A stretch of 64,000 nt of DNA from a virus: positions 89,223 through 153,222 of the IMG/VR virus record IMGVR_UViG_3300045988_136221. One strand, written 5' to 3'. The translations under genes and the position numbers were made by a program. This document shows positions 56,330 through 64,000 of this stretch, in pieces. A model generated the notes under the pieces. It ran no database searches, was not told where the DNA came from, and worked only from the letters and a program-made list of their open reading frames with translations. Position 1 is the stretch's first letter. The number at the start of each line of letters is the position of its first letter.

Positions 56330-57562
56330 TTACTTTAATATAATCGGATGCCTCTTCCCTCTAATGAGTTTAAACTTTTTGCGTGAAACATCTTTTGAAT
56401 TTTCTCCGTTGAAATCCCTGATATTGAAACTCCCTGATTTTCTCCTTCCATAAACAAAACATATTTTATTATTATACAACACTTTATCAAACAACCTAAA
56501 ACCAAAAACCTCAAAAGGAGCTTGATTGTTTTTCTTCTTTCCTCCTTTTAAAATTTTCATTTTATGTATTTGCCTATTATGCCTACGAATTAAACGTTTT
56601 AAATATTGACATCCGATTCGTTTCGCATTAATGTTCTTAGAAATGACAAACGCGTCGGATGTATGGGATTTTTCAATCCCGTATTTAATCCGATTATGTT
56701 TCGTAATGTAACCAAACGTCATAGAAACTCTGTCGTATCTGGATCTCAGTTCTTCATACAACTTCCATTTCATGATCCCCATTACGGCCGCGTCGCGAAG
56801 CGACTTGCCTCTTCTGATTTTTAAATCTATATTACCTTTATGGTATTCTTTGTGACAAGTTTCACATAAGGTAATAAGATTAGAAGGGGAATCACCTCCC
56901 GTTTTTCGGGATTCAAGATGATGGACATTAAGGATCTTATCTTTTGACTTCCCTTTACAATACTGACATTTATGCCCATCCCTTGCTAAAACATACTCCC
57001 TTGTGTTCCAAAACTCAAGTTGATCACCTTCCTGGTATTCTTTACCTAATATTTCAGGATTCTTAATCTTTTGAGTATCAAATTGAGCTACTTCAATAAC
57101 AATACGAGATATTGGTAGTATAGAGCAAATATTTTCAATAACACGAATATGAGCGTCTACTTTGTATTTCACCGAAGGTGCTATCCATCCTGAACGCTTG
57201 CTTTTTATTCTATTATTAAAACGAGGTTTTCTATATCTTAACCTGTTCCGTCTTGTTTTCCGTAGCTCTCTTCTGGTAGACAAAAGATCTACGATATCAT
57301 TTCTAAGAATTACTTCACTGCTGTAAAGTTCTTTGCTTTTCGTTGTAGCTGATAGACCAACGTGTTTGGTCCCAGCATCAACGCCTAACACAATTTCTTG
57401 TTTGTAATCAGATGTGACGTACGTTAATTTGATGGTAAACGGACATAAGCTCACAACAACTGCCTTGTTTTCTTTAAGCAGTCGTCTTACCTTACCATGC
57501 CTTGTTGTAGGCATCATAGGTTTACCATCTATGTCTTGTACGTACACCATATCTACAAACAT
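56330..57562 (-). CDS. iscB: IscB (OMEGA RNA-guided RuvC+HNH nuclease, Cas9 ancestor family)
   Basis: N-terminal PLMP domain (DGKPMMPTTRHGKVRRLL); RuvC-I LGVDAGTKHVGLS; Arg-rich bridge helix TRRELRKTRRNRLRYRKPRFNNR; RuvC-II RIVIEVAQFD; HNH HKCQYC...LNVHHLESRKTGGDSPSNLITLCETCHKEYH; RuvC-III HTSDAFVI. Confidence 0.85.
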   Translation of the reverse strand: MFVDMVYVQDIDGKPMMPTTRHGKVRRLLKENKAVVVSLCPFTIKLTYVTSDYKQEIVLGVDAGTKHVGLSATTKSKELYSSEVILRNDIVDLLSTRRELRKTRRNRLRYRKPRFNNRIKSKRSGWIAPSVKYKVDAHIRVIENICSILPISRIVIEVAQFDTQKIKNPEILGKEYQEGDQLEFWNTREYVLARDGHKCQYCKGKSKDKILNVHHLESRKTGGDSPSNLITLCETCHKEYHKGNIDLKIRRGKSLRDAAVMGIMKWKLYEELRSRYDRVSMTFGYITKHNRIKYGIEKSHTSDAFVISKNINAKRIGCQYLKRLIRRHNRQIHKMKILKGGKKKNNQAPFEVFGFRLFDKVLYNNKICFVYGRRKSGSFNIRDFNGENSKDVSRKKFKLIRGKRHPIILK

Positions 57563-57852
57563 TTTTAATGTTTATTCAACATAAGTCAGGAATATTTCAT
57601 CCTGTTAGTACCCATCGCCAATGTTATAAGAGGTTTTGATGCAAGCAACACTGTTTCGCAAATACACTACTCCTGTTTAATCGCTTGCCTTAGAGCTACG
57701 GACTTGGGCAAACATCCGTAGGTAACTATCTATTCTCAAATAACGTAGCCTTCGTTTCAAGGCTTAGGCTAATATCCGGACCATTTATGGTACATTAAAA
57801 CCTTATAATGAAATTATATTGTTTTAATGTTATTTCGGATATACAAACAAAC
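57563..57852 (-). ncRNA. putative IscB omegaRNA region (5' of iscB)
   Basis: 290-bp ORF-free region immediately upstream of iscB with several stem-loops (e.g. ctacgga..tccgtag; agcctt..aaggct). By established IscB biology the omegaRNA is encoded directly upstream of the ORF. Ends not determinable by eye. Confidence 0.45.
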
Positions 57853-58620
57853 TCATCCCGCAATCTCCCAGTCATTAGACATAATATCATGTTCGGTTGG
57901 ATTCCAATTTGATGCTACTTTTTGACCTGTATCTACCATCAATATATTTACGTCAGATTCTGCAATAAACATACAGATATACTTTTTACCCCAATCGATT
58001 CTTTTTATCTTACGACCTAATTTAAGCTGTTCTAAAGCCTTTTCGAATGTCATGCCATGACGAGGCAGTTTGAGATACTTTTCAAGTCTGTCGGCGGCTT
58101 CATTTGGTGTATGGCCATCATATTCGAAAGCGGTTTCTCTTTCAGGAACATCAAACAAATCCCAGTATTTGCTTTTATAGTGATTAGATACCTGACCGGT
58201 AGGCAGGATCGCCATCACAATAAACCAGTCATCAGAACCGAAGCATTTTTCTCCGTCGCTGTGTCTCCTTGATTTGCAAACTTCAACCTGTCCGTTTCTG
58301 GCTAATAGATTAAAGAAGGCAGCGTTATACAACATGCGGTACCGATACAATTCATTGAAAGTATGGTATCCGTCAGAAACTTCTCCCATGTCTCCTGGTT
58401 CTGCTTCAGGTTTAGGATGATTAGGATAATAGTAGTCCACTGATGCTTCTAACACAGACTTGATGTGTTCTACTATCCTCGTAGCATCATCATGTCTTAA
58501 GAAATACTTGAATCCTTCAACGAATTTAATATCTTCATTGATTGTTGATTCGAACTCTTCTTTTGTCATCACTCCAATTACATCTTTTTTAAAATCGTCT
58601 AATCCCATAATTTGTTTCAA
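57853..58620 (-). CDS. two-domain protein with C-terminal DUF2829 (Tad2-like) domain
   Basis: C-terminal ~65 aa MTFEKALEQLKLGRKIKRIDWGKKY...HDIMSNDWEIAG matches my recollection of the DUF2829 pattern (M.FeeAl..lK.GkkvrR.gW ... DWEiv), the family of Thoeris anti-defence Tad2. N-terminal 190 aa unknown. Confidence 0.5.
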   Translation of the reverse strand: MKQIMGLDDFKKDVIGVMTKEEFESTINEDIKFVEGFKYFLRHDDATRIVEHIKSVLEASVDYYYPNHPKPEAEPGDMGEVSDGYHTFNELYRYRMLYNAAFFNLLARNGQVEVCKSRRHSDGEKCFGSDDWFIVMAILPTGQVSNHYKSKYWDLFDVPERETAFEYDGHTPNEAADRLEKYLKLPRHGMTFEKALEQLKLGRKIKRIDWGKKYICMFIAESDVNILMVDTGQKVASNWNPTEHDIMSNDWEIAG

Positions 58621-58631
58621 ATTAATTGTTA

Positions 58632-59264
58632 CTATACTTTCTTTATCCTACAATACAAATCCCATAAGAACTTAGCAGAAAAAACATCCCATACATTATT
58701 CTTCTGCAAAAGATCTACTTTGTTAGCAAACCAAGACCATATGGGACCATCATATGAAGAATCAGATGATTTCCCCAATCCAATTTTCTCCATTTCATTC
58801 GCCACATCAGAATAAGGATCGAGCTCGACTCCCCTAATCATGTTAATAACATCATCCTTATCTAACGTAAATTGAAACTGCTCCTTATTAGACAGATCTT
58901 GATTTATTTTGCCCGTTACAAACCACTCTTTATCATAATATAGCTTAATAAGCTTCTTTACTTTCTTTTCAAGAAAAGGAAACTCTTGTATGACTTCCAT
59001 AAAATTAGATTCGTCGGCTTTGCCTTCTATGAAGATAACAGTTTTGCTTCCAGGTCTATGATCGTCTAAGCTTGCCGGGATGCCAAATATCGTCCATCCT
59101 TTAAACTCAGCTATCTTAAAACGCATAACGTCAAACACATTATAGAAATCATCACAATCTATAGATTCTATTACCTTAACATCCTCTTCCGTAAATTTAC
59201 CTCGTATTGGAATAACGTGATGACCAGGGCAGCCATCGGTTCCGAAATATGCGATTCTAACCAT
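58632..59264 (-). CDS. hypothetical protein (210 aa)
   Basis: ORF track. Confidence 0.5.
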   Translation of the reverse strand: MVRIAYFGTDGCPGHHVIPIRGKFTEEDVKVIESIDCDDFYNVFDVMRFKIAEFKGWTIFGIPASLDDHRPGSKTVIFIEGKADESNFMEVIQEFPFLEKKVKKLIKLYYDKEWFVTGKINQDLSNKEQFQFTLDKDDVINMIRGVELDPYSDVANEMEKIGLGKSSDSSYDGPIWSWFANKVDLLQKNNVWDVFSAKFLWDLYCRIKKV

Positions 59265-62613: not shown

Positions 62614-62985
62614 TTATGAAACTTCTATTTCATAATGCGAAGCCTCTGTTTCAACTATCAATCTTCCCTCTCCTTCGAACTCAACACTGTCATTTCCCGG
62701 ACCAGTAACAAAAGGGAAATCAGATACGGATGTTACATAATCTCCAGAACCACCGGAAAAAGACTGACTTTTACTTTGTTTGTAATTGATAGTCAATTGT
62801 GTTTTACCTGGCTGAAGAGTTCCAGATAAATTTTTAGTATAAGTGGTGGTAGTCGTAATATTCCCATTTTTATAGCAATACATTATAAAGGTAGTAACCG
62901 GACTCTTTTTAATATTACTATCTGGACCTTCATGTTGACATACTCCCATCGCTAAAGCAAATGGGATTCTTGGATACAAACGCAA
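62614..62985 (-). CDS. hypothetical protein (123 aa); annotated N-terminus runs into TnpB element right end
   Basis: ORF track; first ~20 codons lie inside the sequence shared with the other IS copy (from 62925), so true start may be an internal Met. Confidence 0.4.
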   Translation of the reverse strand: MRLYPRIPFALAMGVCQHEGPDSNIKKSPVTTFIMYCYKNGNITTTTTYTKNLSGTLQPGKTQLTINYKQSKSQSFSGGSGDYVTSVSDFPFVTGPGNDSVEFEGEGRLIVETEASHYEIEVS

Positions 62986-64000
62986 GAAACCCCGATGTTG
63001 CTATCGTTGGAATTACTCTTGCTTTCCAATTCGGAAATGCCCTTCCGAAGTATATTACAGGCTGCAAGAACATCACGGTCGTTAATTGCACCGCACGCCG
63101 GGCACACCCACGTGCGGTCGCGTAACGACAATCCTTTATTAATGCAGCCACATTCACAAGTTTTGGAAGAAGGATACCATTTGTCAATCTTGTGTATCGT
63201 TACTCCATACTTTGAAGCAACATACGTAAGTTTGTTAATAAAAGAAGAATGACTGAGGTCAGAAACTTTCTTTCCCCACAAACGTTTCATTCCTTCAATG
63301 TTTAGATCTTCAATGAAAATATAATCATACTGTTTGCATAACTGGTGTGCTAATCCCCATTGAAAATCCGATCGAAGATCGTTTATTTTACGATACGCTT
63401 GTTGTAGTTCAAACAGTCTCCTTCTTCTATTGTTGGATCCTTTAACAGATTTAGAAATCCTTTTATTGCATTTCTTGATCTTGTTTTGATATTGTTTGAA
63501 GAATAGAGGAGAATTAATTTTGCTACCATCACTTTTAGTTAGATAAGTTTTCAGACCAAAATCCAATCCGATAGATGCACCATCATGTGTCTTTCTATAA
63601 GAGTTTGAAGGATTATGGTCTGTAATTATAATCAAACTAAAACGTGAACAGGTTTCTCTAACTATTCTAATTTGCTTAACATTACCTTCATAAGGTCTAC
63701 TGTATGAGAATCTAAATCGTTTCTTTCCTTTGTTAATTGTTAGACAATTACCATTCAGGGTAAAACCTCCTTGTTTGAATACAAAAGAATTGAATTTCTC
63801 CGGTGATTTAAACTTAGGAGGTCGTTTAGCCAACTTCTTAAAGAAACGATTATAAGATTCATCAAGACGTTCAAGTATTTCTTGTGTTGTTTGGGAATGA
63901 AGAAGATTTCTTTTAATTCTTTTGGCAAAATACTTCTTCATTTTGCCAACTGGTATGTATTTTCCAAACAGTTTGTAATATCTACGTTGTAGGGATAAAG
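62925..64000 (-). mobile_element. IS200/IS605-family (tnpB-only) element, copy 2 (runs off window end)
   Basis: ~90% identical by eye to 10700-11780 including antisense frames. Diverged, not an exact duplicate. Confidence 0.55.
62952..64000 (-). CDS. tnpB: TnpB, second copy (5' end beyond window)
   Basis: Protein nearly identical to copy 1 through the RuvC and zinc-finger region (…WVCPACGAINDRDVLAACNILRKG…), divergent C-terminal tail. Reading frame still open at position 64000. Confidence 0.8.
   Translation of the reverse strand, partial: LSLQRRYYKLFGKYIPVGKMKKYFAKRIKRNLLHSQTTQEILERLDESYNRFFKKLAKRPPKFKSPEKFNSFVFKQGGFTLNGNCLTINKGKKRFRFSYSRPYEGNVKQIRIVRETCSRFSLIIITDHNPSNSYRKTHDGASIGLDFGLKTYLTKSDGSKINSPLFFKQYQNKIKKCNKRISKSVKGSNNRRRRLFELQQAYRKINDLRSDFQWGLAHQLCKQYDYIFIEDLNIEGMKRLWGKKVSDLSHSSFINKLTYVASKYGVTIHKIDKWYPSSKTCECGCINKGLSLRDRTWVCPACGAINDRDVLAACNILRKGISELESKSNSNDSNIGVSCVCIQESHLL

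What the first reader, a model, noticed from the sequence alone, without database searches (positions are those of the whole stretch)
57853..58620. Tad2-like (DUF2829) domain fused to an unknown 190-aa N-terminal domain
The C-terminal ~65 aa (MTFEKALEQLKLGRKIKRIDW....SNDWEIAG) match the DUF2829 fold family that includes Thoeris anti-defence protein Tad2, a sponge for the gcADPR signalling molecule. Here it is fused to a larger unrelated N-terminal domain and sits next to IscB in the late block. A fusion could widen ligand range or add an enzymatic activity.
Basis: partly seen in the sequence, partly recalled or inferred. Interest (0 to 1): 0.55.

Follow-up and report, generated by a model that had tools for sequence, protein, structure and literature searches.

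The report
WDGH–Tad2-like fusion protein in gut phage
This phage gene encodes a stripped-down version of Tad2, a domain phages use to soak up bacterial alarm molecules. It is fused to WDGH, a very widespread and highly conserved phage domain of unknown function and with no known structural relative. The fusion is the first clue that WDGH may also act against bacterial immunity.

Summary

The "unknown 190-aa N-terminal domain" is not undefined. Residues 75-177 are a Pfam WDGH domain (PF25311, E=1.5e-36), preceded by a variable helical region.

The Tad2 module is a minimal variant. It keeps W206, W235 and D241, lacks the Asn of the WNGK motif and the adenine-contacting Thr, and lacks the whole alpha2 insertion.

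The fusion recurs in hundreds of gut-phage contigs. Some relatives carry WDGH, Sequestin (PF21825, a validated 3'cADPR sponge) and Tad2 in one protein. All three regions are under purifying selection.

The best reading is a modular counter-defence protein in which the Tad2-like module acts as a signal sponge; the activity of WDGH is unknown. The IscB adjacency is an incidental, polymorphic insertion (6 of 80 related loci).

I class it as a new variant of a known kind, of moderate interest.

The parts
57853..58608 (-). Whole gene: 251 codons from the ATG at 58608, plus the stop at 57853..57855. An alternative TTG start lies at 58620.
   Evidence: ORF list. The 95%-identical csAssE-Sib homologue WOZ57315.1 is annotated as 251 aa. 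The upstream gene's stop lies 11 nt before the TTG and 23 nt before the ATG.
58411..58608 (-). Variable N-terminal helical region, aa 1-66. The model shows two long helices. No family match.
   Evidence: The model has helices at 16-36 and 42-60 with pLDDT ~60-79. The only Pfam or PHROG hits are insignificant. dN/dS is 0.17. Relatives carry other N-terminal modules in its place.
58387..58410 (-). Low-confidence linker, aa 67-74. Relatives carry a ~40-aa insertion here.
   Evidence: pLDDT is below 50 for residues 62-82. The insertion is seen in P0002, P0048 and P0069.
58078..58386 (-). WDGH domain (PF25311), aa 75-177. Motifs are SDGYHTF, KSRRHSDGE, GQVSNHY and YDGHTP.
57856..58053 (-). Minimal Tad2-like (DUF2829, PF11195) domain, aa 186-251.
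57604..57842 (-). HEARO/omega RNA of the neighbouring IscB element. It is context only, not part of the protein. It starts 11 nt after the gene's stop codon.
   Evidence: Rfam RF02033, 101.8 bits against a gathering score of 83, E=7e-21. Homology with csAssE-Sib breaks at 57841.
56330..57562 (-). IscB (RRXRR plus HNH), a polymorphic mobile insertion downstream of the gene. Context only.
   Evidence: PF14239 E=8.5e-60 and PF01844 E=5.5e-10. It is present in only 6 of 80 related IMG/VR loci.
58632..59264 (-). Upstream 210-aa gene of unknown function, probably co-transcribed. Context only.
   Evidence: It is present immediately upstream in 55 of 80 related loci. It has no Pfam, PHROG, NCBIfam or PADLOC hit. 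Its family has only 84 clusters.

Best explanation
The gene encodes a modular phage counter-defence protein of three parts: a variable helical N-terminus, a WDGH domain, and a C-terminal minimal Tad2-like domain. Shown: the C-terminal domain has the Tad2 fold and keeps the two tryptophans and the aspartate that clamp gcADPR in SPO1 Tad2. Also shown: both domains are autonomous modules that are shuffled among phage proteins, and both are under purifying selection. Inferred: the Tad2-like domain assembles into a homo-oligomer, as every solved Tad2 does. At the protomer interfaces it would sequester an ADP-ribose-derived or other nucleotide immune signal made by host TIR-type (Thoeris-like) systems, which would keep the effector silent. 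The pocket lacks the phosphate-binding Asn and the adenine-binding Thr and has Lys-Lys and His in their neighbourhood. The preferred ligand may therefore differ from 3'cADPR. The cyclic-dinucleotide pocket of long Tad2 proteins cannot exist here, because the insertion that builds it is absent. WDGH is a second, independent module. Its size (about 110 aa when stand-alone), its phage-restricted and very broad distribution, its extreme conservation of polar and aromatic residues, and its recurrent fusion to validated sponges (Tad2 alone, or Sequestin plus Tad2) all point one way. It most likely also acts on a small-molecule immune signal or a related nucleotide, either as a new sponge or as a metal-dependent enzyme built on its invariant His and Asp residues.
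For: Tad2 identity:
- PF11195 E=2.5e-12.
- Pocket residues W25, I63, T65, W73, S76 and D79 of SPO1 Tad2 (paper) map to W206, V225, T227, W235, T238 and D241.
- W206, W235, P237, D241, D246 and W247 are at least 90% conserved across all module variants.

Purifying selection: dN/dS is 0.07 for WDGH and 0.17 for the Tad2-like domain, over 66 unique coding sequences.

Modularity:
- WDGH occurs alone as proteins of 110-128 aa and with more than 45 different flanking sequences.
- The Tad2 module is swapped between short and canonical WNGK variants on a constant WDGH.

Sponge-fusion logic:
- Published work shows that Tad2 is frequently fused to other sponges, that such fusions are bifunctional, and that PF21825/Sequestin was found that way.
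- Relatives here are WDGH-PF21825-Tad2 triple fusions. P0117 represents 70 member sequences.

N-terminal extensions on a Tad2 core are compatible with tetramers, as in pdAcrIIA7. The gene sits in a mosaic accessory island between structural genes.
Against: - The Asn of the W-N-G-K motif contacts the diphosphate in SPO1 and HgmTad2 and is present in all four solved Tad2 proteins. It is missing here, where the sequence is W-G-K-K.
- The adenine-contacting T78 is His here.
- The beta2-beta3 insertion with helix alpha2, which forms the V-shaped dimer interface, is absent. The W-to-W spacing is 29 here against 48 in SPO1. Oligomerisation is therefore unproven.
- Truncated alleles that lack the Tad2 module are abundant. 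P0045 and P0053 have 77 members each. The module is therefore dispensable in some lineages.
- Only 3 of the 147 most similar WDGH representatives carry Tad2. The fusion is a minority architecture and a weak guide to WDGH function.
- No binding, oligomer or host Thoeris data could be obtained. The host is unknown.
Confidence: 0.4

Rival explanations
1. WDGH carries the real activity, and that activity has nothing to do with immune signalling. It could act in nucleotide metabolism, in host take-over, or on a conserved host protein. The Tad2-like domain would then serve only as an oligomerisation or ligand-sensing appendage.
For: - WDGH is far more conserved (dN/dS 0.07, 33 invariant columns) than its partners.
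- 98% of the top WDGH representatives have no Tad2.
- WDGH genes occur in diverse contexts. In Salmonella phage ST64T one lies between coat and gp4. In Listeria phage A511 one lies in an early small-gene array. In gut phages one lies near dUTPase.
- Alleles without the Tad2 module are common.
Against: - The Tad2 module is itself under purifying selection and keeps the ligand-clamping W/W/D triad.
- Among the Pfam-annotated partners seen with WDGH, the two validated sponge families (Tad2-like, PF21825) recur together. Bro-N also recurs among close relatives, and the rest are singletons.
- WDGH lies beside a NADAR gene, which is linked to ADP-ribose, in two related Bacillus phages.
Confidence: 0.25
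2. The Tad2-like domain works like AcrIIA7. A tetramer would use a basic groove to bind a structured guide RNA such as tracrRNA or an omega RNA. The N-terminal part would regulate that activity, as the AcrIIA7 head domain does.
For: - pdAcrIIA7 is a Tad2-fold tetramer with an N-terminal helical head. It binds tracrRNA through K58, K66 and K71 (PMC13133391).
- Here K58 aligns with K196 and K71 with K208/K209.
- The helix-beta1 stretch LKLGRKIKRIDWGKK holds 7 basic residues in 15.
- The gene lies beside an IscB/omega-RNA element.
Against: - K66 aligns with Ile.
- The 'extended domain' of AcrIIA7 is absent.
- Full-length AcrIIA7 with its head domain is inactive as an anti-CRISPR (section title).
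- The IscB adjacency is a polymorphic insertion, present in 6 of 80 loci, so it is not a conserved functional linkage.
- The domain as a whole is about neutral in charge (sequence).
Confidence: 0.1
3. The Tad2-like module is a decaying remnant of a domain shuffle and has no function of its own.
For: - It is the shortest variant seen. A further 4-aa deletion allele is the majority form, in 51 of 80 loci.
- Truncated, chimeric and frameshifted alleles are frequent.
- Two ligand-contact residues are lost.
Against: - dN/dS is 0.17 over the module.
- The fold is predicted with pLDDT 80-90 and superposes on solved Tad2 at 1.4 A.
- The hallmark W, W, P, D and DW residues are at least 90% conserved.
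Confidence: 0.1

Closest known systems
Tad2 (SPO1 gp34.65; PF11195/DUF2829), Thoeris anti-defence sponge for 1''-3'/1''-2' gcADPR
   Same: It shares the same Pfam family and fold: an N-terminal helix followed by an antiparallel sheet. It keeps W25/W73/D79 as W206/W235/D241, the W-x-P-[ST]-x-x-D motif, and the C-terminal DW motif.
   Different: It is not a stand-alone ~90-aa protein. It lacks N26 (W-G-K-K instead of W-N-G-K). T78 is His. The alpha2 insertion is absent, with a W-to-W spacing of 29 against 48. The oligomeric state and the ligand are unknown.
ModTad2 (9eib/8v3e), sponge for His-ADPR of type II Thoeris and for cCMP/cUMP
   Different: ModTad2 keeps WNGK and W-T-P-S-V-S-D, and it has the extended insertion that creates its second pocket. 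The protein here has neither.
Sponge-sponge fusions: Acb4-Tad2 (Pasteurella phage Pm86) and Sequestin(PF21825)-Tad2 (bioRxiv 10.1101/2025.07.12.664507)
   Same: A Tad2 domain is fused in one polypeptide to another small, phage-restricted module. Close relatives of this protein carry WDGH, PF21825 and Tad2 together.
   Different: The partner here is WDGH. It has not been tested, is not mentioned in that work, and has no structural similarity to any solved sponge.
AcrIIA7 / HgmTad2 (8kbi, 9kzr)
   Different: AcrIIA7 has a 41-residue insertion that forms the cGG/cGAMP pocket and a 48-aa head domain. The protein here has no insertion and a 185-aa N-terminal part that contains a separate globular domain.
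WDGH domain proteins (PF25311), e.g. Listeria phage A511 gp21, P100 gp128, Salmonella phage ST64T p56, Lactococcus phage P092
   Same: It shares the same domain with all invariant residues present. The eponymous motif reads YDGH, as it does in several family members.
   Different: Most family members are stand-alone proteins or are fused to other, unannotated sequences. Only about 2% of the nearest representatives carry Tad2.

Membership tests
Tad2 / DUF2829 (PF11195) | Significant match to the family profile, above Pfam's gathering score | tested here: met
   47.6 bits against a cut-off of 25, E=2.5e-12, profile positions 1-72 of 73.
Tad2 / DUF2829 (PF11195) | Tad2 fold: N-terminal helix plus antiparallel beta-sheet that superposes on solved Tad2 structures | tested here: met
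Tad2 / DUF2829 (PF11195) | Ligand-clamping residues W25, W73 and D79 (SPO1 numbering) | tested here: met
   These are W206, W235 and D241. They are at least 90% conserved among 52 relatives.
Tad2 / DUF2829 (PF11195) | Phosphate- and adenine-contacting residues N26 (W-N-G motif) and T78 | tested here: not met
   The sequence is W-G-K-K with no Asn, and His240 replaces T78. All four solved Tad2 proteins have GWNGK and [ST] at the second position.
Tad2 / DUF2829 (PF11195) | beta2-beta3 insertion carrying helix alpha2, which forms the dimer interface and, in long forms, the cyclic-dinucleotide pocket | tested here: not met
   The spacing between the two Trp residues is 29, against 48 in SPO1 Tad2 and 66 in HgmTad2. 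The model shows consecutive strands with no helix between them.
Tad2 / DUF2829 (PF11195) | Homotetramer with ligand pockets at the protomer interfaces | not testable with these tools
   Only monomer prediction was available.
Tad2 / DUF2829 (PF11195) | Binds gcADPR or another immune signal and relieves Thoeris defence | not testable with these tools
   This needs biochemistry and phage assays.
WDGH domain (PF25311) | Profile match and conserved motifs: SDGYHTF, KS..H, GQ.SNHY, [WY]DGH.P | tested here: met
   125 bits against a cut-off of 27, E=1.5e-36. All 33 invariant columns of a 26-sequence alignment are present.
Multi-sponge fusion proteins (Acb4-Tad2, Sequestin-Tad2) | The Tad2 domain is fused to a second domain that is itself a validated signal sponge | tested here: inconclusive
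   WDGH has never been tested, and no literature on it was found. Relatives with WDGH-PF21825-Tad2 exist, but this protein lacks PF21825.
AcrIIA7-type tracrRNA binders | Conserved basic groove residues K58, K66 and K71 on the Tad2 core | tested here: inconclusive
   K58 aligns with K196, K66 with I204, and K71 with K208/K209. The mapping goes through a shared alignment to 9kzr_A, and the residues come from the paper.
Functional association with IscB/omega RNA | Conserved linkage of the two genes across related genomes | tested here: not met
   IscB lies downstream in 6 of 80 related loci and is absent from csAssE-Sib. The homology break falls at the omega-RNA end.

The most novel reading that the evidence does not exclude
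WDGH (PF25311) would be a new, very widespread family of phage proteins that neutralise nucleotide immune signals. It could be a sponge with a previously unseen fold, or a small metal-dependent enzyme that destroys the signal. WDGH-Tad2 and WDGH-Sequestin-Tad2 proteins would then be multi-valent 'capture, or capture-and-destroy' counter-defence proteins. The minimal, insertion-less Tad2 module with a W-G-K-K / W-N-P-T-E-H-D pocket would recognise a signal different from those known for Tad2.
Probability: 0.2. Interest if true: 0.75.

Novelty: new variant of a known kind. Interest (0 to 1): 0.45.

Why it matters
Tad2-family sponges are among the most widespread phage counter-defences. Their fusion partners have already led to one new sponge family, Sequestin.

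WDGH is a much larger and much more conserved family. It has at least 7,930 clusters at 90% identity, and it occurs in model phages such as A511, P100, ST64T and epsilon34. It has no known function, no literature and no structural relative.

Its recurrent fusion to Tad2, alone or with Sequestin, makes a concrete hypothesis testable with existing assays: that WDGH acts on immune signalling. The minimal Tad2 variant also tests which parts of the fold are needed for oligomerisation and ligand capture.

If WDGH proves unrelated to defence, the finding reduces to an ordinary Tad2-family homologue in a gut phage.

Tried and rejected
1. WDGH function by homology.
- There were no NCBIfam or PADLOC hits.
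- PHROG hits were all of unknown function.
- Relaxed Pfam scans of 26 WDGH sequences gave only scattered single-sequence noise.
- The profile found nothing among PDB sequences up to E=10.
- BFVD returned only other WDGH proteins.
- The afdb50 library was unavailable.

2. Literature. Searches for 'WDGH domain', 'PF25311' and 'WDGH' found nothing relevant. A search for 'csAssE' returned only noise.

3. Gene neighbourhood of WDGH.
- In annotated phages and metagenome contigs the neighbours are mostly hypothetical genes.
- The NADAR adjacency is seen only in two related Bacillus phages, so it counts as one event.

4. Cross-phylum WDGH-Tad2 fusion. The Nocardia locus L097 looked like one, but it is WDGH embedded in a 571-aa coiled-coil protein with no Tad2.

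5. The N-terminal 'MKKYIGTKQ' domain of relatives. I suspected it was Acb4 (PF13876). It has no Pfam hit and no PDB sequence match. It does co-occur with Tad2 in phrog_872.

6. Functional link to IscB. I rejected this as a polymorphic insertion.

7. Host inference. There are no tRNAs and the composition is unremarkable at about 35% GC. The host remains unknown.

Full report
**The observation**

The minus strand carries an uninterrupted ORF at 57853..58620, 255 aa from a TTG. An ATG four codons in, at 58608, gives 251 aa. That matches the 251-aa homologue annotated as "protein of unknown function (DUF2829)" in phage csAssE-Sib. The csAssE-Sib gene is 95% identical in DNA over this stretch. I use the 251-aa numbering below.

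Pfam finds two significant domains. In the numbering of that scan (the 255-aa TTG ORF), WDGH (PF25311) covers residues 79-181 at E=1.5e-36 and 125 bits. Tad2-like (PF11195) covers residues 190-253 at E=2.5e-12, 47.6 bits against a cut-off of 25.

Its own refutation test, no DUF2829 hit, fails.

**What the N-terminal part is**

It is not one unknown domain. Residues 1-66 form two predicted helices with no family match. Residues 67-74 are a low-confidence linker, where relatives carry a ~40-aa insertion. Residues 75-177 are a WDGH domain.

Modelled alone, WDGH gives pLDDT 91.8 and pTM 0.81. Its order of elements is a long helix, a three-stranded antiparallel sheet, a short helix, a long loop carrying the [WY]DGH motif, and a final helix.

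The family is very large. A search of 1.84 billion 50%-identity representatives found 3,739 representatives.

Many members are stand-alone proteins of 110-128 aa. Others carry the domain between highly diverse flanks: 45 C-flank and 51 N-flank sequence clusters among 147 representatives.

The domain occurs in 196 of 50,697 GenBank phage records. Examples are Listeria phages A511 (gp21) and P100 (gp128), the Salmonella P22-like phages ST64T and epsilon34, and Bacillus, Streptococcus, Lactococcus and Klebsiella phages. In ST64T the gene lies between coat and gp4. It also occurs in prophage-like regions across bacterial phyla and in one Methanobrevibacter MAG.

Conservation is extreme. Across 26 sequences that are only 58-72% identical to the query, 33 of about 115 positions are invariant. 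These include four His, two Asp, one Glu, and Arg, Lys, Asn, Gln and Tyr residues. In this protein the key ones are D79, H82, E86, R91, K112, H116, Q139, N142, H143, D164, H166 and R174.

**How the Tad2 module compares with validated Tad2 proteins**

In SPO1 Tad2 the ligand is clamped by W25 and W73. Polar contacts come from N26 and D79. Adenine contacts come from T78, I63 and T65, and waters are held by D67, H71 and S76 (bioRxiv 10.1101/2023.05.01.538930). The HMMER alignments map these residues as follows.

| SPO1 Tad2 | This protein |
|---|---|
| W25 | W206 |
| N26 | G207 |
| I63 | V225 |
| T65 | T227 |
| D67 | Q229 |
| H71 | S233 |
| W73 | W235 |
| S76 | T238 |
| T78 | H240 |
| D79 | D241 |

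The aromatic clamp and the aspartate are kept. They are at least 90% conserved among 52 relatives.

The Asn of the W-N-G-K motif is missing; the sequence here is W-G-K-K. That Asn is present in all four solved Tad2 proteins, and together with the Gly it binds the diphosphate in HgmTad2. The adenine-contacting Thr/Ser is His here.

The whole beta2-beta3 insertion is also missing. In SPO1 that insertion carries helix alpha2 and forms the V-shaped dimer interface. In HgmTad2 and SptTad2 it builds the cGG/cGAMP pocket. The two Trp residues are 29 positions apart here, against 48 in SPO1 and 66 in HgmTad2.

Among relatives the Tad2 module is swapped on a nearly constant WDGH. Variants include WGKK/25 or 29/WNPTEHD, WKNE/36/WNPSIED, WNDK/31/WNPSLAD, and the canonical WNGK/60/WVPSISD.

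The module is thus a bona fide member of the fold family. It is the most reduced variant seen, and it fails two residue-level features and one structural feature of the validated sponges.

**Population and context**

IMG/VR holds 321 stretches that encode relatives. The 80 best are all in 30-250 kb human-gut phage contigs. Over 66 unique coding sequences, dN/dS is 0.17 for the N-terminus, 0.07 for WDGH and 0.17 for the Tad2-like domain. All three parts are therefore maintained by selection.

The gene sits in a mosaic accessory island between large structural genes. Compared with csAssE-Sib, homology is kept for the gene itself (57841..58640) but breaks on both sides. The upstream 210-aa gene is present in 55 of 80 loci, and a 101-aa downstream gene in 78 of 80.

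The IscB gene and its HEARO/omega RNA at 57604..57842 form an insertion. It begins 11 nt after the stop codon and is present in only 6 of 80 related loci.

Alleles lacking the Tad2 module, alleles lacking most of WDGH, and in-frame chimeras with the upstream gene or with IscB all occur in metagenomes. The Tad2-less alleles include P0045 and P0053, with 77 member sequences each. The WDGH-less example is P0119, joined exactly between the two DG(Y)HT motifs. This supports the view that the domains work independently.

**What the literature adds**

Tad2-family proteins are homotetrameric sponges. Different members bind 3'cADPR and 2'cADPR, cGG/cGAMP, His-ADPR, cCMP/cUMP and N7-cADPR.

A 2025 preprint showed three relevant things (10.1101/2025.07.12.664507). 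Tad2 is frequently fused to another sponge, Acb4. Such a fusion blocks both Thoeris and CBASS. Asking which unknown Pfam families are fused to Tad2 led to PF21825, now called Sequestin, a 3'cADPR sponge.

In the present family, several relatives are WDGH-PF21825-Tad2 triple fusions: P0109, P0111, P0116-P0118 and P0120. P0117 has WDGH at 67-167, PF21825 at 177-238 and Tad2 at 250-345. By the same reasoning, WDGH is a candidate further anti-signalling module.

Separately, AcrIIA7 from Phocaeicola dorei is a Tad2 core with an N-terminal helical head domain. It is a tetramer that binds tracrRNA through a basic groove (PMC13133391). This shows that N-terminal extensions are compatible with the tetramer, and it supplies a rival function.

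**Most likely mechanism**

Shown:
- The C-terminal domain has the Tad2 fold and a conserved W/W/D pocket core.
- Both domains are autonomous and selected.
- The fusion to validated sponge families is recurrent.

Inferred:
- The C-terminal domain oligomerises and sequesters an ADP-ribose-derived or other nucleotide immune signal.
- Its specificity is probably altered, with Lys-Lys and His replacing Asn and Thr.
- It has no cyclic-dinucleotide pocket.

Speculative:
- WDGH binds or degrades an immune signal or a related nucleotide.
- Its invariant His, Asp and Glu residues would fit a metal site. Its size and distribution would fit a sponge.

I put 0.4 on the sponge-type counter-defence reading of the whole protein. 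I put 0.25 on a WDGH-centred function unrelated to signalling, 0.1 on an AcrIIA7-like RNA binder, and 0.1 on a decaying Tad2 remnant. The rest is unassigned.

**Novelty and verdict**

The Tad2-like call is confirmed and is ordinary in itself. The family is known, and the csAssE-Sib homologue is already labelled DUF2829. The WDGH plus Tad2-like architecture is already recorded in precomputed Pfam annotations of hundreds of database proteins.

Three things appear not to have been described. WDGH as a fusion partner of sponges is one. The insertion-less Tad2 variant with an altered pocket is another. The absence of any structural relative for so widespread and conserved a phage domain is the third. 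I found no description of these in the searchable literature.

I class the finding as a new variant of a known kind. Interest is moderate at 0.45, mainly as a lead to the function of WDGH.

Noticed in passing
window 56330..57842 (-): A complete IscB (RRXRR plus HNH, 410 aa) with its HEARO/omega RNA (57604..57842, 101.8 bits) is inserted 11 nt after the stop codon of the WDGH-Tad2 gene. It takes the place of a ~340-bp segment of csAssE-Sib that holds a 91-aa gene. IscB is present at this place in only 6 of 80 related IMG/VR loci, at 94-95% protein identity. It is therefore a recent, mobile insertion polymorphism.
   Followed up: partly
window 62952..63941 (-): A 329-aa TnpB (OrfB_IS605 E=9e-19, Cas12f1-like TNB E=1e-19) lies in the same minus-strand block. 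This phage segment therefore carries two different OMEGA-type RNA-guided nuclease elements within 7 kb. Related WDGH loci from other phages also have IscB or TnpB genes nearby (L129, L130).
   Followed up: no
window 58632..59264 (-) and database proteins P0006, P0107, P0115, P0384, P0387, P0393, P0098, P0091, P0051, P0059: The upstream 210-aa gene belongs to a tiny family of 84 clusters with no domain hit. About one fifth of those clusters are in-frame chimeras that join its N-terminal part to pieces of the WDGH or Tad2-like gene. Most are singletons. They could be real deletion variants in the phage population or assembly artefacts.
   Followed up: partly
database proteins P0119, P0071, P0045, P0053 (relatives of window 57853..58608): Natural deletion alleles exist. 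P0119 joins SDGYHT directly to PNEAADR, a deletion between the two DG(Y)HT motifs that removes WDGH. P0071 fuses WDGH to an internal IscB fragment and a fragment of the 116-aa downstream gene. P0045 and P0053 (77 member sequences each) stop right after 'HGMTF' and so lack the Tad2 module.
   Followed up: partly
L005 2848..4048 (Bacillus phage Nate gp134/gp135) and L007 2348..3554 (KoopaTroopa): In these two related Bacillus phages a stand-alone WDGH gene lies directly upstream of, or overlaps, a gene annotated as a NADAR family protein. NADAR is an ADP-ribose-related domain. This is a second, weak hint that links WDGH to ADP-ribose biology.
   Followed up: partly
L004 2821..3381 (Salmonella phage ST64T p56): In P22-like phages (ST64T, epsilon34 and others) the WDGH protein is encoded as an extra gene between the coat gene and gp4, inside the late structural operon. 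This mirrors the late-block position in this window.
   Followed up: no
database proteins P0108, P0110, P0114, P0117, P0121 (N-termini); phrog_872: A ~65-aa N-terminal module (MKKYIGTKQ(V/I)EAEPMT...GY.V.Y.DGYESWSPK..FE..Y) recurs in front of WDGH-Tad2 proteins. It also occurs fused directly to a Tad2-like domain in phrog_872. It has no Pfam or PDB sequence match, and it may be yet another sponge-associated module.
   Followed up: partly
window 58609..58631 (-): There is no Shine-Dalgarno-like sequence ahead of either candidate start codon. The spacer is AT-rich (TAACAATTAATTTGAAACAAATT). This would fit a Bacteroidota-type host, but the host was not determined.
   Followed up: no
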